DNA of 64,000 nt from Chrysomallon squamiferum (Eukaryota; Animalia; Mollusca), in the NCBI GenBank assembly GCA_012295275.1, contig CM022675.1, positions 6,820,001 to 6,884,000 of the forward strand, written 5' to 3'. The position numbers were made by a program, and so were the translations under genes. Shown here piece by piece: positions 3,006-64,000 of this stretch. The number at the start of each line of letters is the position of its first letter. Position 1 is the stretch's first letter. The notes beneath the pieces are model-generated. The model was not told where the DNA came from. It saw nothing but the letters and a program-made list of their open reading frames with translations, and made no database searches.

Positions 3006-29467
<26,462 letters not shown>

Positions 29468-37083: not shown

Positions 37084-40000
37084 TTTTGACAACTCTTCTA
37101 CAATGGATGGACATTACAGTTTCAGAACCAGAGAAAAGGACAAACACATCCATGAAGATGCAGGACACATTTATTGTATATCTTGTAGAAACCAGGTATT
37201 ATATGATTTATTTATTTATTTTTGGGAAGAAATACATTTTCATTCTTTTTATTATTATTATTTTTTTTTTTTTTTAATAAAGATATATTCTGATTTTCAA
37301 AACACATACATAAAACAATTAAAATAAATGTAAGAAGTATAAATTCGAAGGTTTTCTCTCTTTTTTTTTGAATTTTTCCCACCAAGAGTGACAGATGAAA
37401 ACATGAAGGGATATGGAGAAAGAACAACATCGCTATGGCGACGGTATAGCGAGTTTGAACTTCTGAGAAACTATTTGGATATCATGTATCCAGCCATTGT
37501 TATTCCTCCACTACCTGAGAAGAAGGTGACTTTTTAACTACACTTTATTTATTCATTTCTTTTTCTTTTTCTTTTTTTTCTCATTATTAATGAAAAAGAA
37601 TAAATAAATAAAGTATGTTTGAATTATTATTTATAAATATCTGTTTTTGATTATTTTATATTTATTAGTCTATTATTGTGTTTTTAAATTTACTCAAGAA
37701 TATAAACAAAATGTTTTAATTAATTTTTGAATTTTTGTATTTTTATTTATTTATTAATTTTTTTATAATTATTTTTAAATTATTATTTTTGTTATTGTTA
37801 TTTTCATCATTATCATTGTTATCATCATCTACATTATTATTATTATTATCATTATTCTTATTTTCATTATTATTGTTATCATCATCATCATCATTACTAT
37901 TATCATTATTATTCTTATTATTGTCATCATCACTGTCATCATTATTGTTATAAATGTTGTTTATATTTTTTTCGTAGGCAAGTTACACATGGCTGAACTC
38001 TCCAACTGATAAGTTAGACCCAGAGTTTGTGGAAAGAAGAAGAAATGCTTTGGAGGTTTTTGAATCATTTATTTATCAGTACTTAGAAATAGCTTAATGC
38101 ATTTAGTAAACTTCTTACACGATTACAGATAATTCATTTATTTGTATTTACAAAAATAGCTTAATACAGTTAGTAAACAACTTACATCATTACAGATAAT
38201 TTATTTATTTGTATTTACAAAAATAGCTTAATACAGTTAGTAAACAACTTACATCATTACAGATAATTTATTTATTTGTATTTACCAAATAGCTTAATAC
38301 AGTTAGTAAACAACTTACTTGATTACAGATAATTTATTTATTTGTATTTACCAAATAGCTTAATACATTTAGTAAATAACTTGAATCATTACAGATAGTT
38401 CAAGCATTCACTTAGTAGTACAAACAAACAGTCACATAAAAATATCATACTTCCATGTTACTATTTTATGTGACCCATCACATCAAAACAAGTCTTAAGT
38501 CACAAGACCAAGTATTCAGCATTAGACAACACAAGAACATTAATGAAGAGGACACAACATTTTTTTTATTTTTTTATTTGTTAAAAATGGGTTTATATGT
38601 ACCTTATCTCTTTGAATGAGTGACACAGTTAATGGATATATTAATCCTAAGGAATCCTATATTCACTCATAACAAAGTATGGCAATAAAACAATACTGTT
38701 ACAAAATATCAGATCACCACAATTTTACCTCATTATGACTACAGTCATGATGTTGTCATTCATATTATACATGGTTGAGTGATAACAGTTGTTTATAAAA
38801 GATGGAAGAAACTTTATACCAGTGACATTATGACATCATAACATTGAGATATTTTTAAATGTCACTCTTTTTTTTTTATTATACTTTATTAGTAGTTAAG
38901 CTTGGACAGCACAAAATAGACAAAAACATAATGTGGAAGAATGTGAGATGTAATTTAGACTATTTCTTCTTATCTCTCTACTGTTACACTTTAAATATAT
39001 ATCAGTGATATCATTTACTATCACCAGGGTATATATCAGTTTGTGGACAGTCTTTATCTGCTTGTTTTTAACTGGTTCACTGCTACATTATCTATGCTAT
39101 AGTGCAGGCCAAATGTACACAAAGGCATTTTCCATGATAACTCTTAATGTTTGAAGTTCAAGGAACCTGTAACCAGCCAACCCAGGAAAACAGTGTCAGA
39201 TAATAAATTTCTTTTTAAATTTTTTTTCAGATTTTTCTATTACGAGTGGCAGCACATCCTGTTATTTGTAATGATAAAATATTTATGGGATTTTTACAGC
39301 AGGTAATAAAAAATGTTTCTGTCTGTCTGTCTGTCTGTCCATCTCTCTGTATTTTTTTTTTTTTGTAACTGTGTAAATTTCAGTTTATCAGTTTATTTAT
39401 TTGATGTTTATCATTCTGTTTGTCCTGCTGCTTACTGTTTTGTTGATTATTAATCTGTTAATTTATGTGTTTGATTGTCAGTGTATATATTTATTTTTAT
39501 ACTTCCTTCTTTGTCATTTTTTCTTTAAAAATAAAACTATTTATTTTATTTTTTTCTATGATTTGTATAGTTTTTGTAATATTCTTGTTACTAGTGATTA
39601 ATAGAAGAATATTTTTAAATGTATATTTTATTGTGTTCTTAAAAATGAGCACTAATGTGTATTTTGATTTCTCTTTGAAGTATATTAACAGAAAAATCAT
39701 AGTTTTCTTTAAAAACACATTTGATGAAATTATATTGAACTAGATATTCACATTAATTTTGACAAAAACATCCATTTTGAAATATCTTCAGTGAATGCTG
39801 AATTGTTGTTAAATATCTTTTTCTAAAAAAATTGATCCATTAATAAAAAATACATTTTAAAAAAGTATAAAAAATATATATAAATTATTATTTCTTTTGT
39901 TGCAGGAGAATTCATGGAAAGATTTGGTTTATGCTACAGATTTTCAGAGTAAAGTAAGTTTTGCATTTATATTTTACATATATTTTTATTGTTTTAACAA

Positions 40001-40421
40001 AATCTAAAAAGGTATTTAATTTTACATAATTTTTTTAAGCTAAGTGATATCTAGAATAGTTTTGTTGAGATAATTTAGTTTTATTTATTTTATTATTTTA
40101 AAACACTGTTAAGAAATGTTTATGTTTGATTTTCAGGCTGACTCCAGGCTAAAAGCTCTCAATGCATCATTCAGACTGAAGAAACCAGACAGGTCAGTGT
40201 GTCCAGATTGACTGGACTGTCCACTTTCTCTCTAGAATGACCAGACTGTACACTTTCTAGACTTTCTGTTCTTTGTTTTCCATTTAAGACTAGAAGGACT
40301 TTCTCTAGAATGACCAGACTGTACACTTTCATTTCACCATTGTTTTCCATTTAAGACTAGATCACATTCTTTTTCACATTCTTTTTCTTTAGCTGTATCA
40401 TATTCCTATCACCAGCTGATA

Positions 40422-40478
<57 letters not shown>

Positions 40479-41133
40479 TGTCTCTCTATCTCTTCCCCTC
40501 TCATAAAATAAAGATAACATCAATCTTTACATATTATTTAATGTTGTTTTACAACTTACAGTATTTTTATCAAAGAGATTAGTAAAGATTTGAATGTGGA
40601 CTTATTATTCATTTATTATATATTTTTTAATTTCTTTTCAGAAGGTTTGAAGAAATAAAGAATTACAGTAATGAACTAGAGAACAATATTTCCAACATTT
40701 TGAAAATTAGGGCTGTGAGTTATTTATATCTGTTGTTGTTGTTGTTGTTAAAACAGTATTACTGTTATTATTGTTGTTATTGTTATTACTGTTGTCTTTA
40801 TTATTATCATTATTGCTACTAATAATTTTATTGATATTATTACTATTATTGTTGTTATTACAATTATTATTAGTAGTAAGAGTAGAAGCAGTAGTAGTAA
40901 GGCTATTGTTATTACAACATGACTACTGCTGCTGCTGCTGCTACTACTACTACTACTATTATTATTACTGTTACTATTATTGTTATTGTTATTATTATTA
41001 TTATTACTATTAATATTATTATTATTGTTATTATTACTATTACTATTACTATTATTACTATTACTATTATTATTATTATTACTATCACTATTACTATTAT
41101 TACTATTATTATTATTATTACTATTACTATTAC

Positions 41134-41181
<48 letters not shown>

Positions 41182-44100
41182 CATTATTATTATTATCATT
41201 ATTTCAGAAAATCTGTGATAGGCAGTATGGTATACACAAGGTACATGCAAACTATGCGAGAGTGTTTGGAGAGTGGAGTACTATAGAAAAAGACATGGCT
41301 GAAGCCCTACAAAGCACTGGACACTACATGGATGTGTGAGTCTTTCATGTTTTGGATGCTACAGTATTACAGAAATAATTTGGCTTACGAAAAGCTTTGC
41401 AAATCCTGCCAATTTATTTATGAGAAAAATCATGAGTTGCTTCCCTTTGAAATTATTAATATTATTATTACTGTTGTTATTGTTTGGTGTTTTTTTTATA
41501 TATATATATATATCAGATAAAGTGTTATCAATAAATGCTATATCAGAAGAAGAATTATTGTTCATATTATTTATTATTATTGTTATTGTTATTGTTATTA
41601 TCTTTATTATATTATTATTATTCTTCATTATATGATTATTATTATAACTACTGCTACTGCTACTACCATCATTATTATTAATATTACTACTAATACTAAC
41701 ATTATTATTATCGTCATTATTACCATTATTATCTTTAGCATCATCATCATCATCATCATCATCATTATTATTATCATCATCATCCTTATTATCTTCGTCA
41801 TCATTACCATCACCATCATCGTCATCATCATCATTATTATTATTACAGATATGCATCATCAATAGATGCTATACTGGAGGAGACAGAACAGTATGCTGAT
41901 CAGTTGAAGGAGTATTTGGCGTTTGGCGAGTCGCTGAGGTCGGTGTGCAGGAAGTACGAGTGTCTACAGTATGACTTGGAGAAAGCAGAAGACAGCCTCT
42001 CATACAAAGCTTCACAGCGAGACATGATTGTAAGTGTCGTCCATATTTTATTTGAAGTATAATTTTTTAACGTTTTTTTATATAAAATGTGTTGTCAAAA
42101 TTTTATTTGATGTATAATTTTTTAACGTTTTTTTACTTAAAATGTGTTGTCGAAATTTTATTTGAAGTATAATTTTTTAATGTATTTTATATAAAATGGA
42201 AGTTTTGTTTTAAAATATAATTGTTTTTGTTTTTACGTATTTTATATAAAATACAAATTTTGTAATGATTTCATTTCAAATATGATTTATTTATGTTTAT
42301 TTTATATAAAATGTAAGTTTTCTTATCCAGTTTGTTTTAAAATATTATTTTCTTTTATGTATTTCATAAAATATAAATTTGTTAATAGTTTTATTTCAAA
42401 TATAATTTTATTTACGTTTTTTAATATAAAATATAAGTTTTCTTACCCAGTTTGTTTTAAAATATAAGTTTTGTTATTCTGATTTTATTTGAAATATAAT
42501 TTTGTTCTTCATTTATGTTTATTTTAAATAAGTTTAATTAAAATACGAGCTTTGTTCCTCAAATTTTGTTTGAAATATAAATTTTGTTATTAAACTTTGA
42601 TTTAAAATATAAATTTTGTTACTCAAATTTTAATAAAATAAATGTTTATTTTATTCAGTTTTTATTTATATAAAAGATTTTTAATACACATTTTATCGAA
42701 AATACTAGTTTTGTTGCTCAGTTTTTATTTAAAATTATGTTTGGAATATAAATTTTGTATACCAGACTTATTTGAAAATACAGAAAATATAATTTTATCA
42801 GTCAGATATTATTTTAAAATGTTATTCAGATGTTACCCAATTTTTACTTAAAATACAAGTTTTTTGAATTTTATTAAAATATTTTTAAATATAAGTTTTG
42901 TTTACTCAAATTCTATTTAATATTTAAATTTTTATTTTATTATTCAAATAACTTGAGTACATATAATAATTTCTTTTTATTTTGTTCTTTTTTTTCTTTA
43001 ATGTGTCTTTGCTAGCAGCAAGGAAAATCTCCTGGCAGTTTTTCTATCAGTGGAATGAAAAGTAAAATATTTGGAAACGACACACCTGAACAGCGAGAAC
43101 AGAAACTGAAACAACTGGAGGAGCAGATCAAGCAAGCAGAGGTAGACCTGAAGCAAACAAACGAAGAAACCGCGTAAGTGATACACAGAAAATTTATTTG
43201 TTGATCAACAAGGAAATGGGGGTTTGTATTTGTTGTTATTTTGTTAATAAGTGAAGAAATGGGGTTTATATTTGTTAATAAGTGAAGAAATGGGGTTTAT
43301 ATTTGTTAATAAGTAAAGAAATGAGGTTTATATTTGTTAATAAGTAAAGAAATGAGGTTTATATTTGTTAATAAGTAAAGAAATGAAGTTTATATTTGTT
43401 AATAAGTGAAGAAATGGGGTTTATATTTGTTTATATTTTGTTAATAAGTAAAGAAATGAAGTTTATAGTTGTTAATAAGTAAAGAAATGAGGTTTATATT
43501 TGTTATTATTTTGTTACTAAGTGAAGAAATGAGGTTTATATTTGTTATTATTTTGTTAATAAGTGAAGAAATGAGGTTTATATTTGTTAATACATTATTA
43601 ATAAGTGAAGAAATGGGGTTTATATTTGTTAATAAGTAAAGAAATGGGGTTTGTATTTGTTATTATTTTGTTAATATGTGATGAAATGAATTTTGTATTT
43701 GTTATTATTTTGTTAATAAGTGAAGAAATGAGGTTTATATTTGTTAATATTTTGTTAATAACTGAAGAAATGAGGTTTATATTTGTTAATATTTTGTTAA
43801 TAAGTGAAGAAATGAGGTTTATATTTGTTAATATTTTGTTAATAAGTGAAGTAATGAATTTTATATTTGTTATTATTTTGTTATTATTTTGTTAATAAGT
43901 GATAAAAAGAAGTTTATATCGTTAGCTTATCAAGCATAGAATATATTTTTATTTTGTAACTTTTGGTTAATCACTGGTACAACTAAAATAATCAGAGAAA
44001 TGGTTCTTATCTTTGATTAAGAAGTAAGTAATTGGTTTAAAAACTAAAATAAAAAACAGGCTGAGGCAGTATTGAAATAAATGAACAAAGAAAGAGCATA

Positions 44101-45211
44101 TTTTGTCACCTTTGGTTAAATAACAAAAAAATTTGGTTTTAAGATAAAAATGAAGTTGTTTGGTACAGTGTAAAATTGTTTTTTGATTTTTTTTTTTTTT
44201 TTTATATTTTATTAATCTGTATTTTAATCTATATATAATTTTTTTTTTATTTAGCAAATTTGTAGAAGCTGCTCTGAGAGACATAGAAAGATTCAAAAGG
44301 CAGAAAGCAAAAGATTTAAAAGAAATTTTTACTAATTTTGCAATTATGCAGATAAAGGAATGCAAGAAGGTTTGTTTTATATTAGACTTTAATAATAATT
44401 TATGTCATATATAACTCATTAAGCTTTGTTCTGGGTTGTGCACTCACTCATAAAGGCTGTCAAATTTTAGCTCTGATGTAAGATGTAATTACCAGGAATT
44501 CTTATACTGATGGGTCCAGAGGATTGTATGAGTTAGATCTGAAGACAAAAAATAAACTGAAAGAGAAAATCTAAAACAAATTTCTGTTATAAGTAATAAC
44601 TTTGTAGTAGAACAGATGTAATTATATTTTAACTTGATTCCAAAAAAATTAACTAATTTACAGGGCATTGATAAAAAAATATAAAAAAAAATCTGTGTTT
44701 ATAATAACTTTGTACTAGAATACATGTAGATATATATATATATATTAAATTGATTCTAAAAATCTTGACTCTAATATAACATGTAATTACTGGGAATTCC
44801 TATACTGAGTGGTGCAAAGGATTGTATGAGTTAGCTCTGAAAATTGAAAATATGAAGAACCTTTGTTATAGCCAATAACTTTGTACCAGAATAGATGTAG
44901 TTATATATTAACTTGTTGCTAAAAAATCCTAGTTCTAATTTACAGGTATTGCTAAGAAAATATAAAAAAAAAAGTCTGTAATAAAATATATTTTTGTAGT
45001 TGAATAGATGTAATTATATATTAAGTTGTTGCTAAAAAATCTTAACTCTAATTTACAGGGCATTGATAAGAAAATATAAAAATTTAAGTAATACTTTTGT
45101 ACTAGAATAGATATATTTATATATTCACTTGTTTCTAAAAAAAAATTTAACTCTAATTTACAGGGAATTGCTATATGGACGAGTGCAAAAGATTGTATCA
45201 GCAAGATTTGA
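36517..45211 (+). CDS. SNX4: Sorting nexin-4, PX-BAR (spliced, 13 exons, about 436 aa)
   Basis: Join 36517-36624,37089-37195,37387-37525,37978-38055,39231-39302,39906-39953,40137-40192,40642-40714,41208-41335,41849-42029,43016-43173,44255-44369,45164-45211 gives 1311 nt in frame. Motifs SLWRRYSEFELLRNYL, PPLPEK, ADSRLKALNASFR and C-terminal GIAIWTSAKDCISKI resemble SNX4. The exon-2 acceptor is uncertain. Confidence 0.9.
37089..37195 (+). CDS. SNX4: SNX4 exon 2 (PX start)
   Basis: TTLLQWMDITVSEPEKRT...YLVETR; donor AG|gtatt; no canonical AG at the expected 5' boundary. Confidence 0.75.
37387..37525 (+). CDS. SNX4: SNX4 exon 3 (PX: SLWRRYSEF...PPLPEKK)
   Basis: ccaag|A ... AAG|gtgac. Confidence 0.92.
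37978..38055 (+). CDS. SNX4: SNX4 exon 4
   Basis: cgtag|GCA; ASYTWLNSPTDKLDPEFVERRRNALE; donor gtttt. Confidence 0.88.
38085..38400. repeat. ~67 bp tandem repeat (aaatagcttaatacagttagtaaacaacttacatcattacagataatttatttatttgtattta) x5
   Basis: Near-identical copies directly after SNX4 exon 4. Confidence 0.85.
39231..39302 (+). CDS. SNX4: SNX4 exon 5
   Basis: ttcag|ATT; IFLLRVAAHPVICNDKIFMGFLQQ; donor gtaat. Confidence 0.88.
39906..39953 (+). CDS. SNX4: SNX4 exon 6
   Basis: tgcag|GAG; ENSWKDLVYATDFQSK; donor gtaagt. Confidence 0.85.
40137..40192 (+). CDS. SNX4: SNX4 exon 7
   Basis: ttcag|GCT; ADSRLKALNASFRLKKPD; donor gtcagt. Confidence 0.88.
40642..40714 (+). CDS. SNX4: SNX4 exon 8
   Basis: ttcag|A; RFEEIKNYSNELENNISNILKIRA; donor gtgagt. 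Confidence 0.88.
40730..41200. repeat. Long (TTA/CTA/TTG)n trinucleotide microsatellite tract in SNX4 intron 8
   Basis: Simple repeat; source of the poly-I, poly-L and poly-T ORFs. Confidence 0.9.
41208..41335 (+). CDS. SNX4: SNX4 exon 9
   Basis: ttcag|AAA; KICDRQYGIHKVHANYARVFGEWSTIEKDMAEALQSTGHYMD; donor gtgagt. Confidence 0.9.
41849..42029 (+). CDS. SNX4: SNX4 exon 10
   Basis: tacag|A; YASSIDAILEETEQYADQLKEYL...QYDLEKAED...; donor gtaagt. Confidence 0.9.
43016..43173 (+). CDS. SNX4: SNX4 exon 11
   Basis: TAGCAG tandem acceptor; FSISGMKSKIFGNDTPEQREQKLK...; donor gtaagt. Confidence 0.88.
43210..43920. repeat. Minisatellite (ttgttaataagtgaagaaatgaggtttatat) about 18 copies
   Basis: Direct recurrence; explains ORF 43605-43895. 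Confidence 0.9.
44255..44369 (+). CDS. SNX4: SNX4 exon 12
   Basis: tttag|C; KFVEAALRDIERFKRQKAKDLKEIFTNFAIMQIKECKK; donor gtttg. Confidence 0.88.
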
Positions 45212-49794: not shown

Positions 49795-50630
49795 CTAATT
49801 TCATTTGAAGCTTAGAAACTCTTTAAGATATACATAAACGTCTAGATGAAAGTTTTCATGACTTATTCAAGATAATTCAGAATCGTATTTTAACTACAAA
49901 ATTTCAGTCCAGTTGTTATGCGTTTCGATGTTATCTATTTTTATGTGCGTTTGTAACACTGCATATGTGTATGCTGTGTGTGTGTGTGTGTGCGTGCGTG
50001 CGTTTGTGTTCGAGTACGTTTCTAAGACTGCGACGCCCTAGATCAACTGTTATTGAAATAAAATTTCTGCCCTGTAAATATATATATTTAAATATCCGTT
50101 ACCTACTAAATTCTTTCTTTTTTTCTTTATATTTATTTATTTATTTTTGTCAGAAATATTATAAAAGCTAATTTCATGATAAAAAATATAACTATTTACG
50201 AAGACTAGTAGCGACATGTGTTCAAACTTAGGGCATGTCAATACGCTCTTGAAAACATTTTTTTTTTCTTTTTCTTTTTTCCGTTTTTTCCTCTTTTTTT
50301 TTAAGCGCACTTGACAATTCCTTCCAGTCGATAGTCTTGTTTAGAAATATGTAGAATTCCTTTACAATGCTGGGTCACTGCATAATTACGGTTAGATTTC
50401 TTTTCGGCAATTTCCTTACACATGCAACTTTGGTCTCCTCCCCCTTAACCCAAATATTTATAGTTTTAAAAATCTTGAGAATCTTGCGTAGTTCACCACG
50501 TCTTTGCAGCGAAATTAAAAATTATGGTAATGGAATATCGTTTTGCACAAATAGCCAAAATATTTTTGGTGTTTGTTTTGGGTGCAATATTCTCATTGAA
50601 ATGTTAATATGGAATATTTAGAAAAAAAAA

Positions 50631-50700
<70 letters not shown>

Positions 50701-50908
50701 TTGTTTCTTTTTCTTTTTCTTTTGTCTATTCTTTGTCGACCCTCTTGTACACTCTCTTACTATCTCTATCCTAATCATTACCGATCATGTAGAACTTAAT
50801 ACGGACTTGTGTATATATGTGCCATTTTAAGTAAATATTATATAATAATTTAAGCATTTATTTTGGTCTTACACTTATTCTGTTCTTCCGATCTTTCATT
50901 TAACTTTT

Positions 50909-50986
<78 letters not shown>

Positions 50987-52081
50987 GAATACATATTCAA
51001 ATACACTGTATACACAATCAAATGTAATTAATTATCAAGTAGGACTCGACTGGTTGTTAGTTATATTTAATTTTCTATGAAACAAAAATAACATTGCGTA
51101 GAGTAACAAAAATAAATAAAATGTCACTGACTGAATTCCAGCTCTTTAAATATAATCGGTGAGTACCTGATAAATAAAATAAAATAAAATAAAATAAAAT
51201 AAAATAAAATAAAATACTATATTATAAAATAATATGAAATAAAATGTATTTATTTATTTATTTATTTATTATTTTACCAAAAGGCAATTGCAGTTTTCTT
51301 TCTTTATCATTATTTCAAAAAAAAAAAATTTTTGATATCGGAATGGGTGTGTGTATGAGTGCATCGGAGGTATTCGTAAAATTATCGAATTTTACCGTCT
51401 ACTGAATTGTCGTCTGCTGCAACAAAAGTGCACGTCTGCTACCCGTAACGACCTTGGCTCCGTGACGTCTGATCTAAATTGATTTTACGTAAATCTAATT
51501 TTACGCACTTGCAGAAATAGCACGCTTCAGTAAAAGTTAAATAAAAGACTTAATTCATTTATTGTCGCTTGTAATATTATTCAACTGATAACCCTAATGT
51601 TCGATAACCCTAACAAACGTTAGCATACTGGTTCAAAAGACATTCACACTGTTTAAAAACATACTATCGCTTTTTTCGAAAAGAAAAATAAATACTTTAA
51701 ATATGTCAGAAACGTTCTAAATTGTTTCAGAGTGTATTTCAAGTTTGCCCCGTCTACGGTGTTATAAATCACGGTGGATCGTTTGGGTGTCCTGCAACGA
51801 TTCCAAAAAGTCTGGGAAAACTCGAGGAAACTGATTCCTATTGGAACCAGCTGTCTTTATCTACGGAGTGCCGTTTGTGTCATACATACTAGGATAATGT
51901 AGCAATGTTATAAAGTGAATTAGTGACATGGTTATATGCTTTGTTAGTAGTCGCAGTTTGCTAGTGTGATGTTTTTAACAAATAATAATAATAATCATAA
52001 AATAAATAAGAAAGAAAGAATCAAACAAACAAACAACAACAACAATAAATACTTATTTATGACAAAGTATATAATGATAAT

Positions 52082-52129
<48 letters not shown>

Positions 52130-52233
52130 CAATTATATGATGATAATGATGATGAATAATTTCGTACCATATACATCATTGCAGTTGTTTATACAGCAAC
52201 CAATGTTGGTGTGATTCCTCGTTTTTTATTATT

Positions 52234-52313
<80 letters not shown>

Positions 52314-54348
52314 ACTTATCATGTAACATAAAAGTGCACATGCACTCACGTACCATAAAGGTTGCACTTGCACATACGCGCATTCACAATGTCTAGAATA
52401 TCAAAGACACGGAAATCACATAATCGTGTCTAAATGCCAAAAGACATAGTTTTAATCTAAAAACACAAGAAATGCATTCGAAATGAGTTATTTTGGAAAT
52501 ATATGTGACAAGTCCTAATGAAATTCATCAGCTTAAATGTGTTGCCTATTATTGCATGGTGTTTTTCGACTAAAACAAAACTAATACGTTATGCTCGATA
52601 ACAACTTCGCAATGTCAGAATTGTAAAAATAAAAAGGAATTTCCGATCCAGAAAAAAAAGGTGCTGTTTTTTTCTTTCTTTTTTCTCTTCATTTTTTAAA
52701 ATATATTTATTTCCTTTTTATTATATATATATTTTTAAATTTCCTTATTAGTCAACTTTCATCTCTCCTTTTTTCTTTCTCTCGCTCAGAATCTGTTTAT
52801 CCATTCCTGTGTTTCTGTTTTTCTTTCCTATTTTCTTTCTCAATGTTTTATTTGGTTTCATTCACTCACTCATATTGTTTTTCTCTTTCATTCATTCTGT
52901 CCTTCACTCTGTCTACCTTTCATTCTACACACACACACACATATATATATATAGATATAGATAGATTTGCCTGTCAGTCCTGTTCCTTTATCTGTCTTTT
53001 TCTTTCTTTGTCTGTCGTTCTTTTTCCTTTCCCAAAATAATAAGACAATTTGTAAACAAAAAACAGATTCTTTGTCCATTTTCAAATCTATATCAATAAA
53101 TGATATTTTCTATTCATATTTAAAAAAAAATAATATTAACATTACAGAATCATAAAGATATTGTTCTGTGTTGTAAGAAAACCAATTATTTAATTCATTG
53201 TTTGTTATTCGTAATTAGAAACTAAATTACATTACACTGTCATAAAGATAAGGCTATTAAAAGAGACTAAAACGCGAGATATTTAATTCAGTGTTAATTA
53301 TTGTTAATTATAATCTACGCTCTACAAAAATAAAATAAAATAGTTAAAAAAAACTGCCCGCTCAGCGTATTTTTTGATGGTCATTTGCACAGCTGAGATA
53401 GCAGAAGACATGTTTTTTTTTTTTTTTTTTTTTAAATCTTTTTATAGAAAATGTAAACAAAACCATGAACTCTAGCAAGAGAGTGGAACATCAGACCCGG
53501 GGAGGTTTGTTTATGACCTTTGGGGTCAGCACGATACGCTGCTTTGATGGCTTGCAGACGTAACCTACATCTAGAATTTTCCCGATTAGCGTTGAAGTCA
53601 AAACCAAACGATAAAGTAAAATTTGCCAAAAAAAAAAGAACCCCAAAATATAAACAACCACGGTTAGACAGACATTGCTTATTTTTGCATTACTATTTAT
53701 ACATGTGAGTAGTTTAATGGAAAATAATAATAATAATAAATTTGCTTTGCAAAAAAAAAAAAAAAAAAAAAAGGGACACACCAAAATAAAAATAATAAAA
53801 ATAATAATAAAAACACGTACTGATAGAAGTAAACTAAAACAAACGAAAATAAGTAAATAAACGCTATTGTGCTTATCATTATTATTACTTTGAATTTGCA
53901 TTTATAACTGATCGATCATCTTAAAAAAAACAAAAAACAAAAACACAACAACAACAAACAAACAAACTCAACTGACAGTAATAAAAGCAAACAGTAAACT
54001 TGACAGTAGTAGTAGTAGTTATGGCAATACTAGAAACAGTTATCGTATTCGTAATAATATTGTTTAAGCCCAGAAATAGAGAAAATTATTTATTTAAACA
54101 AACTATGTTTGTTTGTTATTTGTTTATTTATTTTTATTATCGCGATATCTCACAATATTTATTATTTATTAGTTATCAATAAATAAATAAATAATGATGA
54201 TGATGACAATGATGATGAGTATTATTATCACTATTATTATTACAGAAACGCAGAGTAATGGACGGTTAGACAGATAAAAATAGAGATATAAGATAACTAA
54301 TATAAATAGAAACATAGACAAAAAGATAATAAGAAAATAAATTAATGA

Positions 54349-54392
<44 letters not shown>

Positions 54393-54865
54393 ACATAAAG
54401 AATGAAAAAAATCGACACCTGAACAAAAACACATGCAGTCAGTCACTTAAGAAGAAGATAACGACACAATATCGCGATATGCATGTTACTTAATTTAATT
54501 ACACTGTTGGGTCTAATGAGCCGTGTAACTACTTGTTCTTAAACGAAACAGAAGAAAAAAAAAATAAGAAGCTAAAAAAGAAGAAGTAGAAGAAGAAGAC
54601 AATGAAGACTCAGGAGAGGAGAAGATAATGGAAATTTCAAAAAAAAAAAAAAAAAAAAAATGAATAAGAAGAAGAATAAGAAGAAGAAATAGTAAGAAGA
54701 AGAAGAAGAAGAAGAAAATAAGACATCAAAGGGACAAAAGATTAAGAAACTGAGTAAGACGTTTTAGACAGAAACAATGAAAAGTTAATAGCCAAACTGA
54801 AGATATTATATTAACAGTATTTATAGAGAAAAAACTACAAGAACATTAATGACAGTGAAGAATAT

Positions 54866-54896
<31 letters not shown>

Positions 54897-55393
54897 AAGA
54901 AAAGAAGAAGTAATAATAAAATATATTTCTGAAAGGAAATAAAGTAAGAAAGAAAGAAAACGGAGAAAGAATTAATGCAAACGGAAAATAGATAGAATAG
55001 CAGAAAGAAAGAAAGAATAAAGAAAACAAAGAAGAAAGAATTAGTAGTGAAATTAAAAGAACAATTAATAACATATATAATATGTAATTTTAATAATAAT
55101 AATAATTTTAATAATAATAATTATAATTATAATAACAGCAATAAACATGCACTTATATGCACGAAGTTAACAAAGTCAACGACACTTCAGACAATCAACA
55201 TTTCAAAAAAGATAAAACTCGCCAAGCTTTCTCATGAAGCCGAACTGAAATAACAAGAAAAAAAAAAAAAAAAAAAAAAAAAAGAATTAAAATTAAAAAC
55301 ACCACGATTGATCAGATTTCATCTGCATTTCATAAACAACTTGGAAAATATCAGGCTAGAGAAGGAAAATAAGCAACGGCTCCAGGACAACAG

Positions 55394-55449
55394 CAAAGGT
55401 CAGCAAGAAAGGCGCTGATTGGCTCGGTGTTCACGCATGCCATATAAAA
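55394..55449 (+). promoter_or_regulatory. Core promoter of gene 3: inverted CCAAT (ctgattggct 55415-55424) + TATA (tataaaa 55443-55449); nuclear-receptor-like caaaggtca at 55394
   Basis: Motifs are seen directly, about 290 nt upstream of the signal-peptide ATG. Confidence 0.6.
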
Positions 55450-55738
55450 TGGTAAGAGTCGTCTGCTTGGTATAGGCAGCTGTGTCCACAGCTAAGCCGT
55501 ATCCTAGAAGAATTATTTCTTGGGAAACCTGTGTTACGCATATTAGCGGAAGCACGGTCAATCCCAGGACGGTGAAGCCTGTATTTTTGGCTTCAAAAAA
55601 TCTCTAGTAGAACTTTTTTTTTCTGAAAAAAAAAAAAACAACAACTACAAAACTTTCTTTATTTTTTTTTTTATTTTTTTTTCTTGATTTTTGGATGTTG
55701 TGATAAGACGTTTGTTTGTACATTAGGACCAAATCAAA

Positions 55739-55799
55739 ATGTGGAAGGAGGCGACATTTGCCTTCTTGGTGTTGTGTGTGGTTGCAGTGCGTTCTCAGG
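55739..55799 (+). CDS. Gene 3 exon 1: signal peptide MWKEATFAFLVLCVVAVRSQ
   Basis: caaaATG; hydrophobic core with a small-residue cleavage region; donor G|gtaagt (phase 1). Confidence 0.8.
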
Positions 55800-57152
55800 G
55801 TAAGTCGACATTTTCTGTTATATTTTGCTTTGCTTTTATATTTTTACGATCATCGTGAAAAAAAAAAAAGCATGCACTTGACTAAACTAAATGACACTGC
55901 TTCGTAACGTAATGCTGAACGCTTGTCTTTTTCAAACGAAGAAAAGTAATATATCTCTTCACTGGTTTTCATTGACAGTATATGCATTTATTTAACAGCA
56001 GAAATTAGAAAACTAAAATTAAAGTGTTAAATAATAATAATTTGCGCAAATCATACTATTTTTGCGATACTGTTGTCGTCTTCTACAGTCAGAAAGCTTG
56101 TTTTTGTCAGGAAATTATCATGGAAATGTCTGTCACTTAAGCCCCGCCTCCTAATTATGATGTATGTCAAAGGAATTTGGTATCCGCCCTCAGGTCAACA
56201 CCCACCCAGGCAACGCCTATTCCTGAATATTGCCATCTTGCATTTTTTGGTAGAACAATGGGTTTTACTGTGTGCTGTACCAATAGAACCTGAAAACAAT
56301 GAATTTTCTCAAAATTACCACCGGGTTAATGTTAAGATAATAGAACTGATGAAATCTGTATTTTGGAAGAATAGTATACCCAAGACAAGATAATTTTAAA
56401 AAAAATAAGCACTTTGTTTAATTGATTCGTTGAAATATATTTTATCAGTTCTTATTATGAAATTGTTGTTGTTGTTGTTGATGATGTTCTTCTTCTTGTA
56501 GTCTTTTTTGTTGCTGCATATATAAATATACATTTAGACACACACACACACACACATATATCTTTTTCTCCTTCTTTCCGAATCTCTCTCTCTCTCTCTT
56601 TTTTCAGTCTGTTTCTTTCTTTGTTACTCTTTGTTCACACACACACACTCACACACACACACACACACAAACACACAACCAAAAAAAATGCATTCACTAG
56701 CACACTGTACTTAATTTATAAAAATTAGCAATTAACTCTTTGTCAAATTTTTATTTTATATATTTGTTGTTGTTGTTGTCGTTGCTGTTGCTGCTGTTAT
56801 TATGTCTTTATTATTATTATTTTGATTTATTACTATCTTTTTTGTTAATAATAACATAAAATAAAGTGAGACTGAAAGGATGTAATGGTCACTGCAAATT
56901 AACAAATACATTTTCAACTTTAGCAAGTTGATGTCATAGATCCCTGTGAAGAAAATCGTAATAATGTTGCAATCTATTAAGCAGAATCGATAAATAGTTA
57001 AAACTATAATTTTTATTTTTTATATATATTTTTTAAACTGCAATAAAATATAACGATAGAACTTACTAGAAACTTACTTGCATTCTCATAAATAAATGAA
57101 CATTTATTTTTAATTTAGTTAAATGATTATAATTATCATCGTCATCATCATG

Positions 57153-57227
<75 letters not shown>

Positions 57228-58582
57228 TAAAGTTTGAAACATTAATTGTCAGAAGATTCTCTCAAAATATCTTTTTTACGGAAACAAGCGTACCCAGTAA
57301 ATAAACTACTCGTACAGAATTTTCAGAATGAGATATCCATATCTTCTGTTTTCGATATCTTTTGGAACGTTTAGTTATCAACTGCTGCCTCTTCGAAACT
57401 GAAAATAAATCGAAGGCAGTGAATTAATTATATTTCAGGCACAGAATTTAAAAAGAAATTATATTTATTTAAGTATCTTGCCGATATTAGACATTTCATA
57501 GAGTTTTAAAATCACAGCACTGTTCCATTTTGCAACACTGGAAACTAACATTAATCTTATTTCTTAGACATGGAACTGTTTCTAATTCTGTCTGTACATA
57601 CACAGTAATGCCCAAAATACCTTCTGGGCATATATAGATTAGGCATAAGGACAACCTCTAGATAAAAAAAAAAAAAAAAAAAAAAAGAAGAAGAACGTTA
57701 TTTTCATCTCGTATGCGCAGTGCCATGTTTCCCTTTTGGCGCGGTGACTTCTAACATTGTTTTACATATCTCGCTGCGAATCCAAACATTTGTATCGTCT
57801 GCATCAACATAACTGATATCAGAAGAGCGCTCGTCTGCTCAACAGGTGCGCAGTGGAGAAAAATCAAACAGATATGTCCGCTGTATGAACCTTCAAGGTT
57901 AAAATAACAAGAATGCTCTTGTCAGATCATTAATTTCGTTGTAGATGTCCGAAAAAAATTAAATAATAACAAACAAAGCAAGAGTTGCGGCCCTTCCTTT
58001 CCTTTGTTTCGTACGTTATCCAAGGTTTATGAAAATAAACAAACTTTTTTTTTTACTTTATATATGTTTAGGTTTAAATATGGTGGTATGAACAAAAATA
58101 TGCAACGAGTATGATATTAAGTGGTTTCGTTAATTTTACATTTTCTTAAAACTTTATGAATTCCAAATAATGAAGAATATTGTTCATAATTACGCTGGGA
58201 TTACTTTTTACTTTGATATACTTTTTGACATCTTCAAAAAACAACAACAATATCAAAAATATTTATAAAAATAATCAAATTAAAAGAAAAACAAAATACA
58301 TAAGTACAGTTTATTCTAGCTAAAATAAAATAACTGTTTAATTTTTTTTCTTTCTTTTTTTCTTTTAATTTTAAAATTAATATATATTTTTATATGCAGA
58401 AAAGAGTGGTAATAAATATTAAAATATTCGTGTCCCTTATGCCAACTTTATATATATATATATATATATATAACAATATTGGCTATTTATCAGAAATATA
58501 TCTGTAAATCAAATAAAGGATTTGTATATAGTCAGTTTTTATTTCTGTCTCTCTCTATATATATCTTTTTCTCCTTTCCGAA

Positions 58583-58640
<58 letters not shown>

Positions 58641-59060
58641 ACTTTCACACACACACACACACATGCTCTTTTTCACTTTTTTCAGTTTTTCTTCGTTGCT
58701 GTTTGTTTTCTCTCACTTCTTTGTCTCTTCCTGTCTCTTTCGCTTCCTGTCTGTATTTCCCCCGAGTCTCTTTGAACTTTTGCAGTGCATATTTTATATT
58801 TCTTCTACATTATCCTGTTTTTATTACATTTATTTACCCCTATTCATAATAAAATTCTCACTCTTCAAAATAAATACGTTTCACTGCAGCTGCAGTATCT
58901 GCCTCATTAACTCTGACTGCAAGCAGAGAAAACAAACAAATATTTCCGACATTTATAACAATCGTCTGTTTGGCAGATGTTAACGAAAAATGCAAAAATT
59001 TAATATCAATAGAAATCGAGACTGGGGCATAGAGAAACTCGAAAAATATTGAAATAAGAG

Positions 59061-59137
<77 letters not shown>

Positions 59138-61011
59138 AAAAAAAAAAAATGTAAGTTAGCTGTACCTATTTCTCTATCACTATATAATGTTGTTTAAAAA
59201 TGCTCTGGCTATTCTTAAAAATTTTCATTTAAAACTTTTCAGATGAGGAAAGTGAATGTTTTGATGCCCAGCTCAAACCAGTACCCGAGGGAAGACGATG
59301 GATACCGGATGCTAATGACCCTTGCTATATCTGTCGATGTATGAACAAAAAAGCCGTCTGTAAACAAAGGAAATGTCCCCCATTGGCCAAGTGCAAAAAC
59401 GGCGCGGAAGCCATCCAACCAGAGGGCGAGTGTTGTCCAAAATGTCCAGGTACGTCATATGTTGTCTATGACGTTAGTTCATAAGACAACGTAAACTGCT
59501 AGCAACTAATACTGACGTCAGAGCATATTATCGAAAAATTATATAAAAAAAAAAAAAAAGTATATACAAATACCGTATACATCTTTTATTATTATTAATA
59601 ATTTAATTACACTTCTCCTATGTCACGTAATAAACGTTACATACATTGTTTTAATTTATATCCTAAATGGACTAAGATTACGTAATCACATCCAAACCAC
59701 GTGACTGTCTATACATTTACTGTGTAATACGATGTGCATTACTCCTGTAAAATATTATCCAAATATATGCTTCTAGTTTTTCAAATAAAAACAATAATGA
59801 CAAGAAAATTTAAAGTCAAATTAAAACACACTCATGCATAACGTAACAAAAATAATAAAATAAAATAAAGTTTGCAAAGTCATCTTTATAAAAATAATAA
59901 AATAAAATAAAGTTTGCAAAGTTAATTATCGACACAGGAACGTTCAAAATGTGTAAAACATATTTTTGACATGTCTGGAGTTAACGCCCTTCCTCATACG
60001 TCCAGCATTCCAAGATATGTACAATAATACTTCAGTGAATGGGGACAAATGTTTTTCACATTAGGGTCACCGTTAGAAATTTTACGTCTTAAAGGATTTT
60101 CACTCTTTTAGCACATACAGATGTGGCCTATATTAGAAATACTTCATGGCTCTCTGTCATTTCAGCATTCTACGTATAACGTGGTGTATATCTAACATTT
60201 TACAGAAAATAATATGAAAGCCGAAAGGTTACATTAACCCAGATCTTGTACATTTCTCATAAATATGTATTCCATATCTGAACCACAATGAAAGAAAGAG
60301 ATGTTTTGGGGTCGTGTTTTTTTTTTTTTTTGGGGGGGGAGGTTTGCGACGCATTCAAAACATTTTCAATCTTTTGTTAATTTATTATGGACTAAGCTAA
60401 AAAGGATAAATTAAATAGAACCTGGTTTATCAAAACGAATTAACTTTTTTCCGAAATTGTTAATTAACCGATTATTTGCTAAAGCATTTAAATAAGTCAT
60501 AAGCCAAAGCAACTCTTTTTAATTAACTTATTAAAGACAACTTATCCTTTTAATGAACAAAAACACATCCATAAGATAGACAGATAATGAAGTGATGATA
60601 ATTTGATGAAATCAGCGCAGCCAGTGAAATGCATTAAAATAAAAATGTGAAATGTATATATGTATTTATTTATTTATTTATTTTTAACTGCACGTCAATA
60701 CATAAAGGATGTTCTAAAAATGTATTCTTGTTCTTGGTCTAATATAGTTTTATTAAAATGAAAAATAGGAAGAGAATAAATTAAAATATCAACCATTGTA
60801 TTTCTGTAATTATTATTATTATTATTATTATTATTATAACAATGATTATGTTTTTATTTTTCAGATGAACGTGACGTAAGTAAAATAAACCTGCATGTGA
60901 TAGAATTATAAAGTAGCGTAATTCACGGTATAATCTAGAATAATCCACCTTGCAACATGACGTAAGCATTATAACCGTGTAGATTTTGCTGTTTTGATGC
61001 TCTGTATATTT

Positions 61012-61072
<61 letters not shown>

Positions 61073-62855
61073 AAAAAATTCAAAACATTTATTTTTTTTT
61101 TATTTTATACAACATAGCTGAGCAGCTTTGATATCCAGTCCAATTCGCAAAACTTTTATTATTCAGTATACCGATTTCGGCAGCAACCGTTCATTTCCGG
61201 GAGCTTTTATTATTGTTCTTCCTCTTTATTAGCAAAAACTTGTCTCTGCCTATATATTTATTTTGGCAGTTTGTGTATACTATCACAGAGATGGATGGCT
61301 AACAAATACTAACTCAGACTGGTTTATAAATACTTACATTTAATGCTTTGTGATTAATTCCACTTGATGATGATGATGTTTTGGTTATGACGCCAATATT
61401 GGGTATAAAGATGATGATAGAGACTATATATACATGTATATTTATTTAATGATAGTTATACGATAATCGTTATCATAATGATGATAATGATGACAGCTGA
61501 TGATTATTCTGTTCACTGTTTAACCAGTGATATTTAAGTACCTGTTTCAAAATGAAGAATAATTTTAACATAGTTGGTGTGCTTCCAAGAAAAAAGCTAA
61601 GCACGCCAGTCCAAAAGGTTACATTCTCATCAAAACGCCTAACCATTAATAAAACAAACTCAGAAGAGCCCAGTATATAATAATATAAATAAATTTAATA
61701 ATAATAATAATAATAATAATTCGGTGCCATAATTAGTAAAACGTTATTGTTTTGCTTTATAGAAAAAAGCCCGAAGAAAGGTAAGAATTTCGTTTCTTAT
61801 GCAAATTAGTTTTTTAACCTTAGACTTCGCTTTTGAACCAAACAAGTTCAGAAGAAAACATTAATTCATAAATTTGATTTATAATAATAACAACAGTAAT
61901 CAATATCATTTTGAAACTGAAACCTGAAAGGCTTAAAATCTAAAATTTAATGAAGTGCAAACAAGAAGAAAAAAAATCTGATATAAAAAAGAATTATAGG
62001 ATTTTATATTTAAAAAAAAAAAAGGGAATAAAATTTTAATTAAAATATATATATACACACACACATAATTAATACTTTGTAGAATCCAAATATTTTAGAT
62101 TGTTTATGATAATTATTTTATTTCATGAATCTGCTATGATTAATTTAAAAAGTAAAGATACATAAGCATTTCATATTTATAAAAGAAAAAATTAAAATTC
62201 TTTCTCTGTCTTTTAGGTTGTCAGAAAGGTAAGCCCTGAAATTTTAAAACTGAAATTAAACAAATATCAATATTATGAATCTTGTTTTCTAAAAACAATA
62301 ATAATAATAATAAATAAGTTCAGAGTTTATCTTGTAATCTTCTGGAAAACAAATAAAAAATAAAATATTTTGTAACAATTAAAAAAAAAAGAAGTTATAT
62401 TAAAAGCAATTCTTAAATTGATCCAGTCACAGTAGACTTTTTCGTTTACTGATAAATATTTAATTTTTATCTCTGTTTTAGCCTCCTGTCAGAAAGGTAA
62501 GAAGTGTAATTTACAAGATTAAAAGCAAAAAACATAAAATCTGCTGAAAAAAAAAGAAAAAAAAGAAGTAAATAAATAAATAAATATATATATATAAATC
62601 ATTCAATCAATCAATGAAATAAATAAATGATTTACATTTTTAAATTAGGAAATTAAAAATAAAAAAGCAAATAAAAGTTAAGTTTGCTAATTAAAAAAAA
62701 AAAATATATATATATATATATAATTAAAAGCAATTCTTAAATTGATTTAGTTTACTGATAAATATTTTATTTTTATCTGTGTTTTAGACTCCTGTCAGAA
62801 AGGTGAGCAGTGATATTTTACATTAAAAGCAAAAAAATATAAAATTTGCTGAAAA

Positions 62856-62902
<47 letters not shown>

Positions 62903-63731
62903 AAATATTAATCAATAAATAAATAATATTTGAAAATAAATAAAGAAGATAAGGCATGATGAAAAAAAAAAAAAAACTGTATATATAAATATAAAATTTA
63001 AAAAAAAAAAAACTTAATACAAAATGAAATATATCATTTGAAATCTCTCTTTATTTTATAAAAATACTATTCAATCACAATAAACTTTTTACTGATGAAT
63101 ATTTTATTTTTATCTCCGTTTTAGCCTCCTGTTAGAAAGGTGAGCTGTAATATTTTACAACATTAAGAGCAAAATTATAAAATTTGCTAAATAAAAAAAT
63201 AAATATTTCAAAATAAATAAATAAAATAATGCAGAATGAAATATAAATTTGTATATATATATCAATATAAAAAAAATAATAATAATAATAAATTAATACA
63301 AAATATATTATAAATTGTTGCATTCGTCTTTTATTTTAAAAAAAAAATGCTAATCAAAATTTAAAAAACAAAGATCTTTTTATAATTTCTTTTCTTAATT
63401 CCTCTTTCTTTTAGTTTTCTGGAAAAATGGTAAGTTTCTAAGTTTTATAAAGAAAATAAAGAGCATTTTTGTTTTTCAAAAACTGTTAAAAGGTAGTAAA
63501 TAAAAAGGCATAATAAAATTTACAAAAATGAATGATAATAATAATAATAATAATAACAATAATAACAGAGTGGCTGAAATTCATTAGCTAAATGTTCTTG
63601 TTAAAATTATTAATTACTTAGTTAATTATCTAATTAATTACTGTTGAACTGAGTATTTATCAACTAAACATTTTATTCAGAATATATTATTTTTATTTTT
63701 ATTTTTTATGCTTTAGACTTCTGGCAAAATG
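55739..63731 (+). CDS. Secreted VWC-domain protein, probably a fibrillar (clade A) procollagen alpha-chain N-terminus; 3'-incomplete
   Basis: Join 55739-55799,59243-59449,60865-60875,61763-61780,62217-62228,62482-62496,62788-62802,63125-63139,63415-63429,63717-63731 stays open. It encodes signal peptide + VWC + basic microexon-encoded linker. Collagen identity is inferred from exon architecture only. Confidence 0.7.
59243..59449 (+). CDS. Gene 3 exon 2: von Willebrand factor type C (chordin-like CR) domain, 207 nt, phase 1-1
   Basis: EESECFDAQLKPVPEGRRWIPDANDPCYICRCMNKKAVCKQRKCPPLAKCKNGAEAIQPEGECCPKCP has 10 Cys with the W, CxxCxC and CCPxC signatures. Boundaries ttttcag| and |gtacgt. Confidence 0.92.
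60421..60618. mobile_element. Possible MITE remnant with imperfect terminal inverted repeats
   Basis: Left end cctggtttatcaaa; right end tttgatgaaatcagc; a related ccggtttatcaaa occurs at about 49690. Confidence 0.3.
60865..60875 (+). CDS. Gene 3 microexon 1 (11 nt, phase 1->0, (D)ERD)
   Basis: tttttcag|ATGAACGTGAC|gtaagt; supplies the phase change that the downstream exons need. Confidence 0.75.
61763..61780 (+). CDS. Gene 3 microexon 2 (18 nt, KKARRK)
   Basis: ttttgctttatag|AAAAAAGCCCGAAGAAAG|gtaaga. Confidence 0.75.
62217..62228 (+). CDS. Gene 3 microexon 3 (12 nt, VVRK)
   Basis: ctgtcttttag|GTTGTCAGAAAG|gtaagc. Confidence 0.75.
62482..62496 (+). CDS. Gene 3 microexon 4 (15 nt, PPVRK)
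   Basis: ctctgttttag|CCTCCTGTCAGAAAG|gtaaga. Confidence 0.78.
62788..62802 (+). CDS. Gene 3 microexon 5 (15 nt, TPVRK)
   Basis: ctgtgttttag|ACTCCTGTCAGAAAG|gtgagc. Confidence 0.78.
63125..63139 (+). CDS. Gene 3 microexon 6 (15 nt, PPVRK)
   Basis: ctccgttttag|CCTCCTGTTAGAAAG|gtgagc. GTC->GTT is synonymous in phase 0 but would create TAG in phase 1. Confidence 0.78.
63415..63429 (+). CDS. Gene 3 microexon 7 (15 nt, FSGKM)
   Basis: ctttcttttag|TTTTCTGGAAAAATG|gtaagt. Confidence 0.75.
63717..63731 (+). CDS. Gene 3 microexon 8 (15 nt, TSGKM)
   Basis: tatgctttag|ACTTCTGGCAAAATG|gtaagc; GGA/GGC synonymous difference from microexon 7. Confidence 0.75.
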
Positions 63732-64000
63732 GTAAGCATTTATATTTTTAAAACTGTAGGAATAATTTGATGTAAATTTCTTTAAAAGAAAACGTTAAAC
63801 ATTTAAAGCAATAAATTCTTTAGAAATATAATTAGAATTTAAAAATTAAAATAAATAAATAAATAAATAAATTTTCAAATATTAAACAATAAATTCCTTA
63901 GAAAGCATCAACTTACTATATAAAAAGAAGTTTATTAGTTGTTTTTTTTCTTTCTCCCATAAATTTGTTTATAAACAAAATTTTTATAAATATTGTTATC

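What the first reader, a model, noticed from the sequence alone, without database searches (positions are those of the whole stretch)
60865..63731. Array of at least 8 frame-compatible microexons (11-18 nt) encoding a basic, modular linker in a secreted VWC protein
Seen in sequence: after the VWC exon there are eight tiny segments, each bounded by a polypyrimidine tract + AG and a strong GTRAG donor. Sizes are 11, 18, 12, 15, 15, 15, 15 and 15 nt, and the later introns are about 250-440 nt. The first shifts phase 1 to 0; the other seven are multiples of 3 in phase 0. They read DERD-KKARRK-VVRK-PPVRK-TPVRK-PPVRK-FSGKM-TSGKM, and the array may continue past the window end. Differences between sister exons include synonymous ones (GTC/GTT, GGA/GGC), which suggests coding constraint. 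None appears in the ORF track. Inference: any subset of the seven symmetric exons can be skipped without frameshift (up to 2^7 combinations). This would tune the length, positive charge and number of basic (RK/RR/KK) sites between the VWC domain and the rest of the protein. It resembles schistosome micro-exon genes but sits in an extracellular matrix-type gene.
Basis: partly seen in the sequence, partly recalled or inferred. Interest (0 to 1): 0.92.

Follow-up and report, generated by a model that had tools for sequence, protein, structure and literature searches.

The report
Skipped basic microexons in snail gene
A snail gene for a secreted protein, likely a fibre-forming collagen, carries a run of seven tiny exons for a strongly positively charged spacer that the available RNA skips, so they are likely an optional insert used only in some tissues, a design known from vertebrate and sea-urchin collagens but here built from 12-18-base pieces.

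Summary
All eight segments are in the sequence, far beyond chance (8 observed; shuffle mean 0.1). RNA contigs from 4 of 4 runs (one study) join a signal-peptide exon, the 207-nt VWC exon and the 11-nt microexon, then go to an exon outside the window. The seven frame-preserving microexons are skipped. The first is therefore real. The other seven are not constitutive, and their inclusion was never seen. They still look maintained: splice cores are invariant in 6 of 6 units, while the flanks of the older units have drifted to background. Three units are recent exon-plus-intron duplications. The host is a gastropod. The gene is likely an A-clade fibrillar collagen: one VWC in a 69-codon exon, then about 4.6 kb more contig. 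No triple helix was seen, and the best structural match is Crossveinless-2. Best reading: an optional, tissue-restricted basic spacer (15 of 35 residues K/R), working like the collagen XI variable region. Free 2^7 combination, furin sites and kinship to schistosome micro-exon genes are unsupported. New variant of a known kind; interest 0.45.

The parts
55418..55449 (+). Promoter-like motifs: inverted CCAAT box (55418) and TATA box (55443)
   Evidence: Sequence; function untested
55739..55799 (+). Coding part of exon 1: 20-residue hydrophobic signal-peptide-like leader, ends in phase 1
   Evidence: its last 30 letters are joined to the VWC exon in 4 of 4 RNA runs
59243..59449 (+). Exon 2, 207 nt, phase 1-1, one VWC domain with 10 cysteines
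   Evidence: Pfam PF00093 E 2.1e-10; covered by RNA contigs in 4 of 4 runs with 0-1 differences
60865..60875 (+). Microexon 1, 11 nt, phase 1 to 0 (DERD); included
   Evidence: First 11 letters behind the VWC exon in 4 of 4 RNA runs, one synonymous difference; single match in the window
61763..61780 (+). Candidate microexon 2, 18 nt (KKARRK); skipped in the RNA seen
   Evidence: Splice signals; not in the contigs
62217..62228 (+). Candidate microexon 3, 12 nt (VVRK); skipped in the RNA seen
   Evidence: 10 of 12 letters shared with microexon 4 while flanks are at background
62482..62496 (+). Candidate microexon 4, 15 nt (PPVRK); recent duplicate unit
62788..62802 (+). Candidate microexon 5, 15 nt (TPVRK); recent duplicate unit
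63125..63139 (+). Candidate microexon 6, 15 nt (PPVRK); recent duplicate unit
63415..63429 (+). Candidate microexon 7, 15 nt (FSGKM)
   Evidence: 12 of 15 letters shared with microexon 8, flanks unrelated
63717..63731 (+). Candidate microexon 8, 15 nt (TSGKM); the array may go on past 64000
   Evidence: unit spacing is 265-337 nt, so a next unit would fall at or beyond the window end
62440..63240 (+). About 306-nt exon-plus-intron unit, tandemly duplicated (units 4-6)
   Evidence: TRF period 306, 1.9 copies at 62440-63011, 78% matches; third copy in family D4; flank z-scores 3.6-8.1

Best explanation
The seven symmetric segments are likely optional (cassette) microexons of a secreted VWC protein that is likely an A-clade fibrillar collagen: the RNA at hand skips all seven, and they would be switched on only in some tissue or stage, adding up to 35 residues (15 of them K/R, none acidic) behind the VWC domain. 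Shown: the signal exon, the VWC exon and the 11-nt exon are spliced together; the 11-nt exon turns phase 1 into phase 0; the all-skipped form exists; units 4-6 arose by copying exon plus intron. Inferred: (1) the splice sites are under selection, so the exons are still used somewhere; (2) the gene is a collagen, so the insert sits in the N-propeptide between VWC and the minor helix; (3) the basic insert binds anions (sulfated glycans, acidic matrix proteins or mineral ions) or holds the VWC domain away from the fibril, as proposed for the basic exon 6B form of collagen XI; (4) the exons are included mostly as a block or in a few patterns, not in 128 free combinations.
For: RNA: 4 of 4 runs show exon 1, VWC exon, 11-nt exon, then another exon. 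Maintenance: 10 of 10 splice-core positions are invariant in units 3-8, against 8 of 51 flank positions (Fisher p 5e-7, which treats positions as independent and uses ungapped flanks). Six units follow each other at 265-337 nt with no dead unit between them. Flanks of units 2, 3, 7 and 8 are at background (z under 2.5), yet exons 7/8 share 12 of 15 letters and exons 3/4 share 10 of 12. All seven lengths are multiples of 3, though only 3-4 are independent. For collagen: a single VWC right behind the leader, as in A-clade chains (PMC2852846; PMC8887668); the exon is 69 codons, and COL2A1 exon 2 encodes 69 residues (PMC12627340); 4612 and 4626 letters lie behind the VWC exon in two contigs, room for about 1540 codons; small exons after the VWC exon in vertebrate A-clade genes (recalled, not checked). 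Precedents: sea-urchin 1alpha chain, whose common mRNA skips a module array behind the VWC; collagen XI basic exon 6B (PMC11800387).
Against: No transcript with any of the seven was seen. The RNA is one study and contigs only. No Gly-X-Y or C-propeptide sequence was seen. The best solved-structure matches of the VWC are Crossveinless-2 (E 1.9e-6) and chordin (E 0.028); collagen II scores only E 0.14. No close homologue was found, and the ESM Atlas hits are VWC2L-type clusters under 0.9. Codon changes among sisters are not biased to synonymous (2 against 3). The final K of five exons ends in AAG, which is also a favoured donor context (recalled), so part of the basic character may be a by-product of splicing. 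Strong splice sites on exons that are fully skipped need a silencing mechanism, which I have not identified. A long contig does not prove a single long transcript.
Confidence: 0.45

Rival explanations
1. The seven segments are silent leftovers: an old microexon was copied with its intron several times, and the copies are never or only noisily spliced in.
For: They are absent from all 4 RNA contigs. Units 4-6 are recent copies whose signals could persist without selection. There is no synonymous bias. This genome does make apparently idle copies of exon ends: four further copies lie in the kinase intron at 28186-28543. A weak look-alike of unit 2 lies near 61589.
Against: Units 2, 3, 7 and 8 kept exon, acceptor, donor and frame while their flanks drifted to background. 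No dead unit lies among six consecutive ones. The kinase-intron copies lack a pyrimidine tract, and one of four has lost its GT.
Confidence: 0.2
2. The exons are regulated as in the best explanation, but the gene is a non-collagen VWC protein (a Crossveinless-2/chordin/kielin-type BMP binder or a shell or matrix protein). The basic insert would then tune binding to heparan sulfate and so the range of the protein.
For: Best PDB matches are Crossveinless-2 and chordin. Atlas hits are VWC2L and chordin-like clusters, all under 0.9. A heparin-binding-type XBBXBX pattern (motif recalled) occurs in 69 of 112 possible peptides.
Against: The 10 residues behind the VWC in the RNA form hold no cysteine, whereas Crossveinless-2 and kielin have back-to-back VWCs (recalled). 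The exon layout and contig length fit a collagen. VWC similarity over 48 cysteine-rich residues is a poor guide to family.
Confidence: 0.2
3. The RNA comes from another allele, population or very recent paralogue that lacks the array. In the window's haplotype the exons are then constitutive or commonly included.
For: All 4 RNA runs differ from the window at one letter of the 11-nt exon, and 3 of 4 differ at one letter of the VWC exon. The array is a tandem repeat that could vary in copy number. DNA of the RNA donors was not examined.
Against: The VWC exon is 99.5-100% identical and the 30 letters of exon 1 shown are identical. The older units are too diverged from each other to be a fresh private insertion.
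Confidence: 0.1
4. Free combinatorial splicing, as in schistosome micro-exon genes, makes a large set of linker variants in the same tissue.
For: All seven are phase 0-0. Net charge of the linker could range from -1 to +14.
Against: In 3 of 4 runs the contig runs unbroken for 1.8-4.6 kb through the skip junction, and in the fourth for 82 letters, so one form prevails. Two exons give the same peptide.
Confidence: 0.05

Closest known systems
Sea-urchin fibrillar collagen 1alpha/2alpha N-propeptides with SURF modules (PMC2852846, passages read)
   Same: An invertebrate chain with a tandem module array between the VWC and the minor helix. For 1alpha the common mRNA skips the array, and a rare long form is suggested by ESTs and a long-exposure Northern blot.
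   Different: SURF modules are four-cysteine domains, and the short 1alpha form also drops the VWC. Here the units are 4-6 residue basic peptides and the VWC is kept. Collagen identity is unproven here.
Collagen alpha1(XI) variable region, exons 6A/6B/7/8 (PMC11800387, passages read)
   Same: A tissue-specific, alternatively spliced, highly basic segment behind the N-terminal globular domain, and an isoform without it. It is proposed to alter fibril growth and to gather mineral ions.
   Different: It is a B-clade chain with a TSPN domain. Its basic segment is one 51-residue exon, not an array of microexons, and it has an acidic alternative, which was not seen here.
COL2A1 IIA/IIB (PMC12627340; PMC12440608; passages read)
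   Same: Signal exon, then a 69-codon VWC exon; alternative splicing in the N-propeptide; the VWC is reported to bind BMP and TGF-beta.
   Different: There the VWC exon itself is optional. Here it is included and the linker exons are optional.
Schistosome micro-exon genes (PMC3166049, passages read)
   Same: Secreted product; exons of 6-36 nt; in-frame skipping is possible.
   Different: There more than 80% of the coding region is microexons. Here 116 nt of microexon lie beside 268 nt of ordinary exon in the window. The protein has a known domain, and no variant set was seen.
Crossveinless-2 VWC1 (PDB 3bk3, 2mbk)
   Same: Best sequence match of the VWC domain among solved structures (E 1.9e-6).
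   Different: No second VWC starts within 10 residues here. The rest of the protein is unseen.

Membership tests
A-clade fibrillar collagen | Signal peptide followed by one VWC module in the N-propeptide | tested here: met
   feature as defined in PMC2852846. The leader was judged by eye, not with a predictor.
A-clade fibrillar collagen | Minor triple helix and a major Gly-X-Y helix of about 1000 residues | not testable with these tools
   It lies beyond position 64000. No genome is held, and only 30 letters of loose end are shown.
A-clade fibrillar collagen | C-terminal COLFI propeptide | not testable with these tools
   Beyond the window
A-clade fibrillar collagen | Transcript long enough for about 1400 residues | tested here: met
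   4612 and 4626 letters behind the VWC exon in 2 of 4 contigs. Necessary, not sufficient.
A-clade fibrillar collagen | VWC closer to collagen VWCs than to those of BMP regulators | tested here: inconclusive
   Crossveinless-2 scores best; collagen II E 0.14. The library holds only vertebrate examples among the 5 hits, and no mollusc homologue was retrieved.
Schistosome micro-exon genes (MEG) | More than 80% of the coding region in 6-36 nt exons | tested here: not met
   116 of 384 coding nt in the window (30%). The exon sizes beyond the window are unknown.
Schistosome micro-exon genes (MEG) | Many splice variants from skipping of symmetric exons | tested here: inconclusive
   One form in 4 of 4 runs; contigs drop rare forms
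Collagen XI-type variable region | Highly basic segment behind the N-terminal domain, with an isoform that lacks it | tested here: inconclusive
   15 of 35 residues K/R and 0 acidic. The lacking form was seen; the including form was not.
Collagen XI-type variable region | TSPN N-terminal domain (B clade) | tested here: not met
   The domain is VWC. It may work like this region but is not a member.
Crossveinless-2/BMPER, kielin | Back-to-back VWC repeats (recalled) | tested here: inconclusive
   No cysteine in the 10 residues behind the first VWC; sequence further on is unseen.
Neural microexon programme (Srrm3/4, eMIC; motif recalled) | UGC motif just upstream of the acceptor | tested here: not met
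   Present in 2 of 8 acceptors

The most novel reading that the evidence does not exclude
A gastropod fibrillar collagen has a growing array of 4-6-residue basic microexons in its N-propeptide. Splicing uses it as a graded charge dial (net -1 to +14), so that one gene gives a plain collagen in soft tissue and a polycationic, anion- or mineral-binding collagen in a specialised tissue such as a mineralising or hard-part-anchoring one.
Probability: 0.15. Interest if true: 0.75.

Novelty: new variant of a known kind. Interest (0 to 1): 0.45.

Why it matters
Alternative N-propeptides are a known way to tune collagen fibril growth, growth-factor binding and mineralisation, but the known cases swap whole domains or one long charged exon. 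An array of tiny basic exons, still expanding by duplication and invisible to ORF-based annotation, would be a finer way to do this. It could be tested with one RT-PCR across tissues. If the exons prove silent, the locus instead shows well-kept splice sites that are ignored, which is a small puzzle for exon definition. My paper searches found no description of such an array in a mollusc collagen (open-access library only, listings read, supplements not examined). Unchecked notes from this scan suggest that microexon arrays recur in mollusc structural genes, which lowers the surprise.

Tried and rejected
No whole genome is held, so the exons past 64000 could not be read. Word-based homologue searches with the VWC exon found nothing (longer proteins; near lengths); this is weak evidence. 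The HMMER search of protein representatives could not be run, so no mollusc homologue of the VWC was obtained. The metagenome scan gave one locus, L001, which is bacterial DNA with a chance 31% match and was rejected. The ESM Atlas gave only generic VWC clusters under 0.9. Rfam found no match in 50000-64000. No stable stem-loop lies around the start codon (z -0.78), so there is no support for a vertebrate-type collagen 5' stem-loop. The bacterial promoter scan and the comparison with P0001 were uninformative. Furin-site tuning was rejected (0 of 112 peptides with R-x-x-R). The neural UGC signature was rejected (2 of 8). A second copy of the 11-nt exon in the window was rejected. A search for the phrase '207 bp' with COL2A1 found no paper; the 69-residue figure came. 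One paper on sponge and anemone collagens is not held. Contig depth was not used to rank expression. Lack of RNA cover over the introns is not counted as evidence.
Full report
Observation. A scan for pyrimidine tract, YAG, 3-30 nt and GTRAG finds all 8 in 60700-64000. The mean in 1000 dinucleotide shuffles is 0.106 and the maximum 2. The rest of the + strand has 2 such units and the - strand has 1. A stricter scan finds 7 of the 8 and nothing else in 64 kb on either strand. The cluster is not chance.

Host and gene. The window is AT-rich animal DNA. The neighbouring doublecortin-like kinase has molluscan best hits. In a 21-row tree it groups with Haliotis and one unnamed protein at 99/97 support, within gastropods (I chose 20 of the 120 listed hits, and no limpet or neomphaline was among them). 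Upstream of the VWC exon lies a first exon with a 20-residue hydrophobic leader (55739-55799), preceded by TATA and inverted CCAAT motifs. The 207-nt exon is one VWC domain.

RNA evidence. One search found five runs of one coded organism: four RNA runs from one study and one of unknown kind. I laid the four RNA runs on 59170-61010. Each gave one contig covering exactly the VWC exon. In all four, the letters before it are the end of exon 1. The letters behind it are the 11-nt microexon with one synonymous change, followed by 19 letters reading KPRQDT. Those 19 letters are not in the window at up to 3 mismatches, and the 11-nt exon has one copy in the window. So microexon 1 is a real exon, and the form in these contigs splices past all seven symmetric segments to an exon beyond 64000. 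The contigs continue for 4612, 82, 4626 and 1772 letters behind the VWC exon. Limits: one study, contigs only, which drop rare forms, and only 30 letters of loose end are shown. This shows the skipped form and cannot show that inclusion is absent. It does refute constitutive inclusion, and it argues against a mix of abundant variants in these samples.

Are the seven still under selection? Units 4-6 are recent copies of exon plus intron: period 306 nt with 78% matches and flank z-scores of 3.6-8.1. For all other pairs the flanks are at background (z under 2.5). Yet exons 7 and 8 share 12 of 15 letters, and exons 3 and 4 share 10 of 12. Across units 3-8, 10 of 10 splice-core positions are invariant against 8 of 51 flank positions. 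The Fisher p of 5e-7 overstates this, because the flanks were compared without gaps and the units were found by their splice sites. Less biased is that six units follow at 265-337 nt spacing with no dead unit between them. Against selection on the peptide: codon changes among sisters are 2 synonymous and 3 residue-changing. The window also holds apparently idle duplicates of an exon end in the kinase intron, which lack a pyrimidine tract and of which 1 of 4 lost its GT, and a weak look-alike of unit 2 near 61589. On balance I put the chance that the seven are used somewhere at about 0.75-0.8.

Which gene? A leader exon, then a single VWC in one phase 1-1 exon, is the A-clade collagen layout (PMC2852846 passages; PMC8887668 passages). 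COL2A1 exon 2 encodes 69 residues (PMC12627340 passages), the same codon count as this exon. A small exon that moves the frame to phase 0 after the VWC exon is how I recall vertebrate A-clade genes; I could not confirm this in print. About 4.6 kb of further contig would hold a collagen chain. Against this, no helix was seen; the VWC matches Crossveinless-2 (E 1.9e-6) and chordin (0.028) better than collagen II (0.14) among 5 hits; and no close homologue was found. I put collagen at about 0.65 and do not file the gene as a member.

How it likely works. By default the 11-nt exon joins the downstream exon and the linker is short and near neutral. In some tissue or stage the array would be included, adding up to 35 residues with 15 K/R and no acidic residue. 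The 128 subsets give 112 peptides of net charge -1 to +14. None has an R-x-x-R motif, 56 have KR or RR, and 69 have an XBBXBX pattern (motif recalled). The insert therefore looks like an anion-binding spacer more than a set of cleavage sites. The closest working model is the collagen XI variable region, where a basic exon is tissue-restricted and is proposed to change steric hindrance on the fibril and to gather mineral ions (PMC11800387 passages). The closest genomic model is the sea-urchin 1alpha gene, whose usual mRNA skips a module array behind the VWC. The VWC of collagen IIA is reported to bind BMP and TGF-beta (PMC12440608 passages), so a basic insert might also tether such a complex to heparan sulfate. 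All functional steps are inference. The neural UGC signature is at only 2 of 8 acceptors, so the regulator is unknown.

Comparison and novelty. This is not a schistosome-type micro-exon gene: those are over 80% microexon (PMC3166049 passages), against 116 of 384 coding nt here. Alternative N-propeptides are known; building one from duplicated 12-18-nt basic exons was not found in my searches (listings only, open-access library, no supplements read). I also read passages of PMC5120351 and PMC10381214, which added nothing decisive. Earlier notes of this scan hold nothing on this locus. They list other microexon arrays in octopus genes (unchecked), which suggests that the architecture recurs in molluscs.

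Verdict. A real and non-random array. One microexon is proven, seven are skipped in the only RNA seen but look maintained. It is probably an optional basic spacer in a probable collagen N-propeptide. New variant of a known kind; interest 0.45; confidence in the full best explanation 0.45.

Noticed in passing
window 28186-28750: The intron after a kinase exon holds tandem copies of that exon's last ~35 nt plus its donor, separated by microsatellites. Four were found by script with 1-7 differences, and a fifth is visible near 28715. They follow AG repeats, not a pyrimidine tract, and one has lost its GT.
   Followed up: partly
window 3066-29452: DCLK3-like doublecortin kinase gene on the + strand, six exon blocks, including a 1.6-kb exon. 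Ordinary.
   Followed up: yes
window 37343-44411: Exons of a PX-domain protein, probably a sorting nexin, on the + strand (PF00787 E 2e-9); subfamily not tested.
   Followed up: partly
window 61558-61620: Weak look-alike of candidate microexon 2 and its acceptor (70% over 40 nt), with a poor pyrimidine tract and no GTRAG donor; possibly a decayed copy.
   Followed up: partly
beyond window 64000 (loose end): The exon used in the RNA begins with a K-P-R-Q peptide whose 12th letter ends a CAG, so it may itself be another microexon of the same kind. Untested.
   Followed up: no
window 60869: All 4 RNA runs differ from the window at this synonymous position of the 11-nt exon: allele, population or paralogue difference.
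   Followed up: partly
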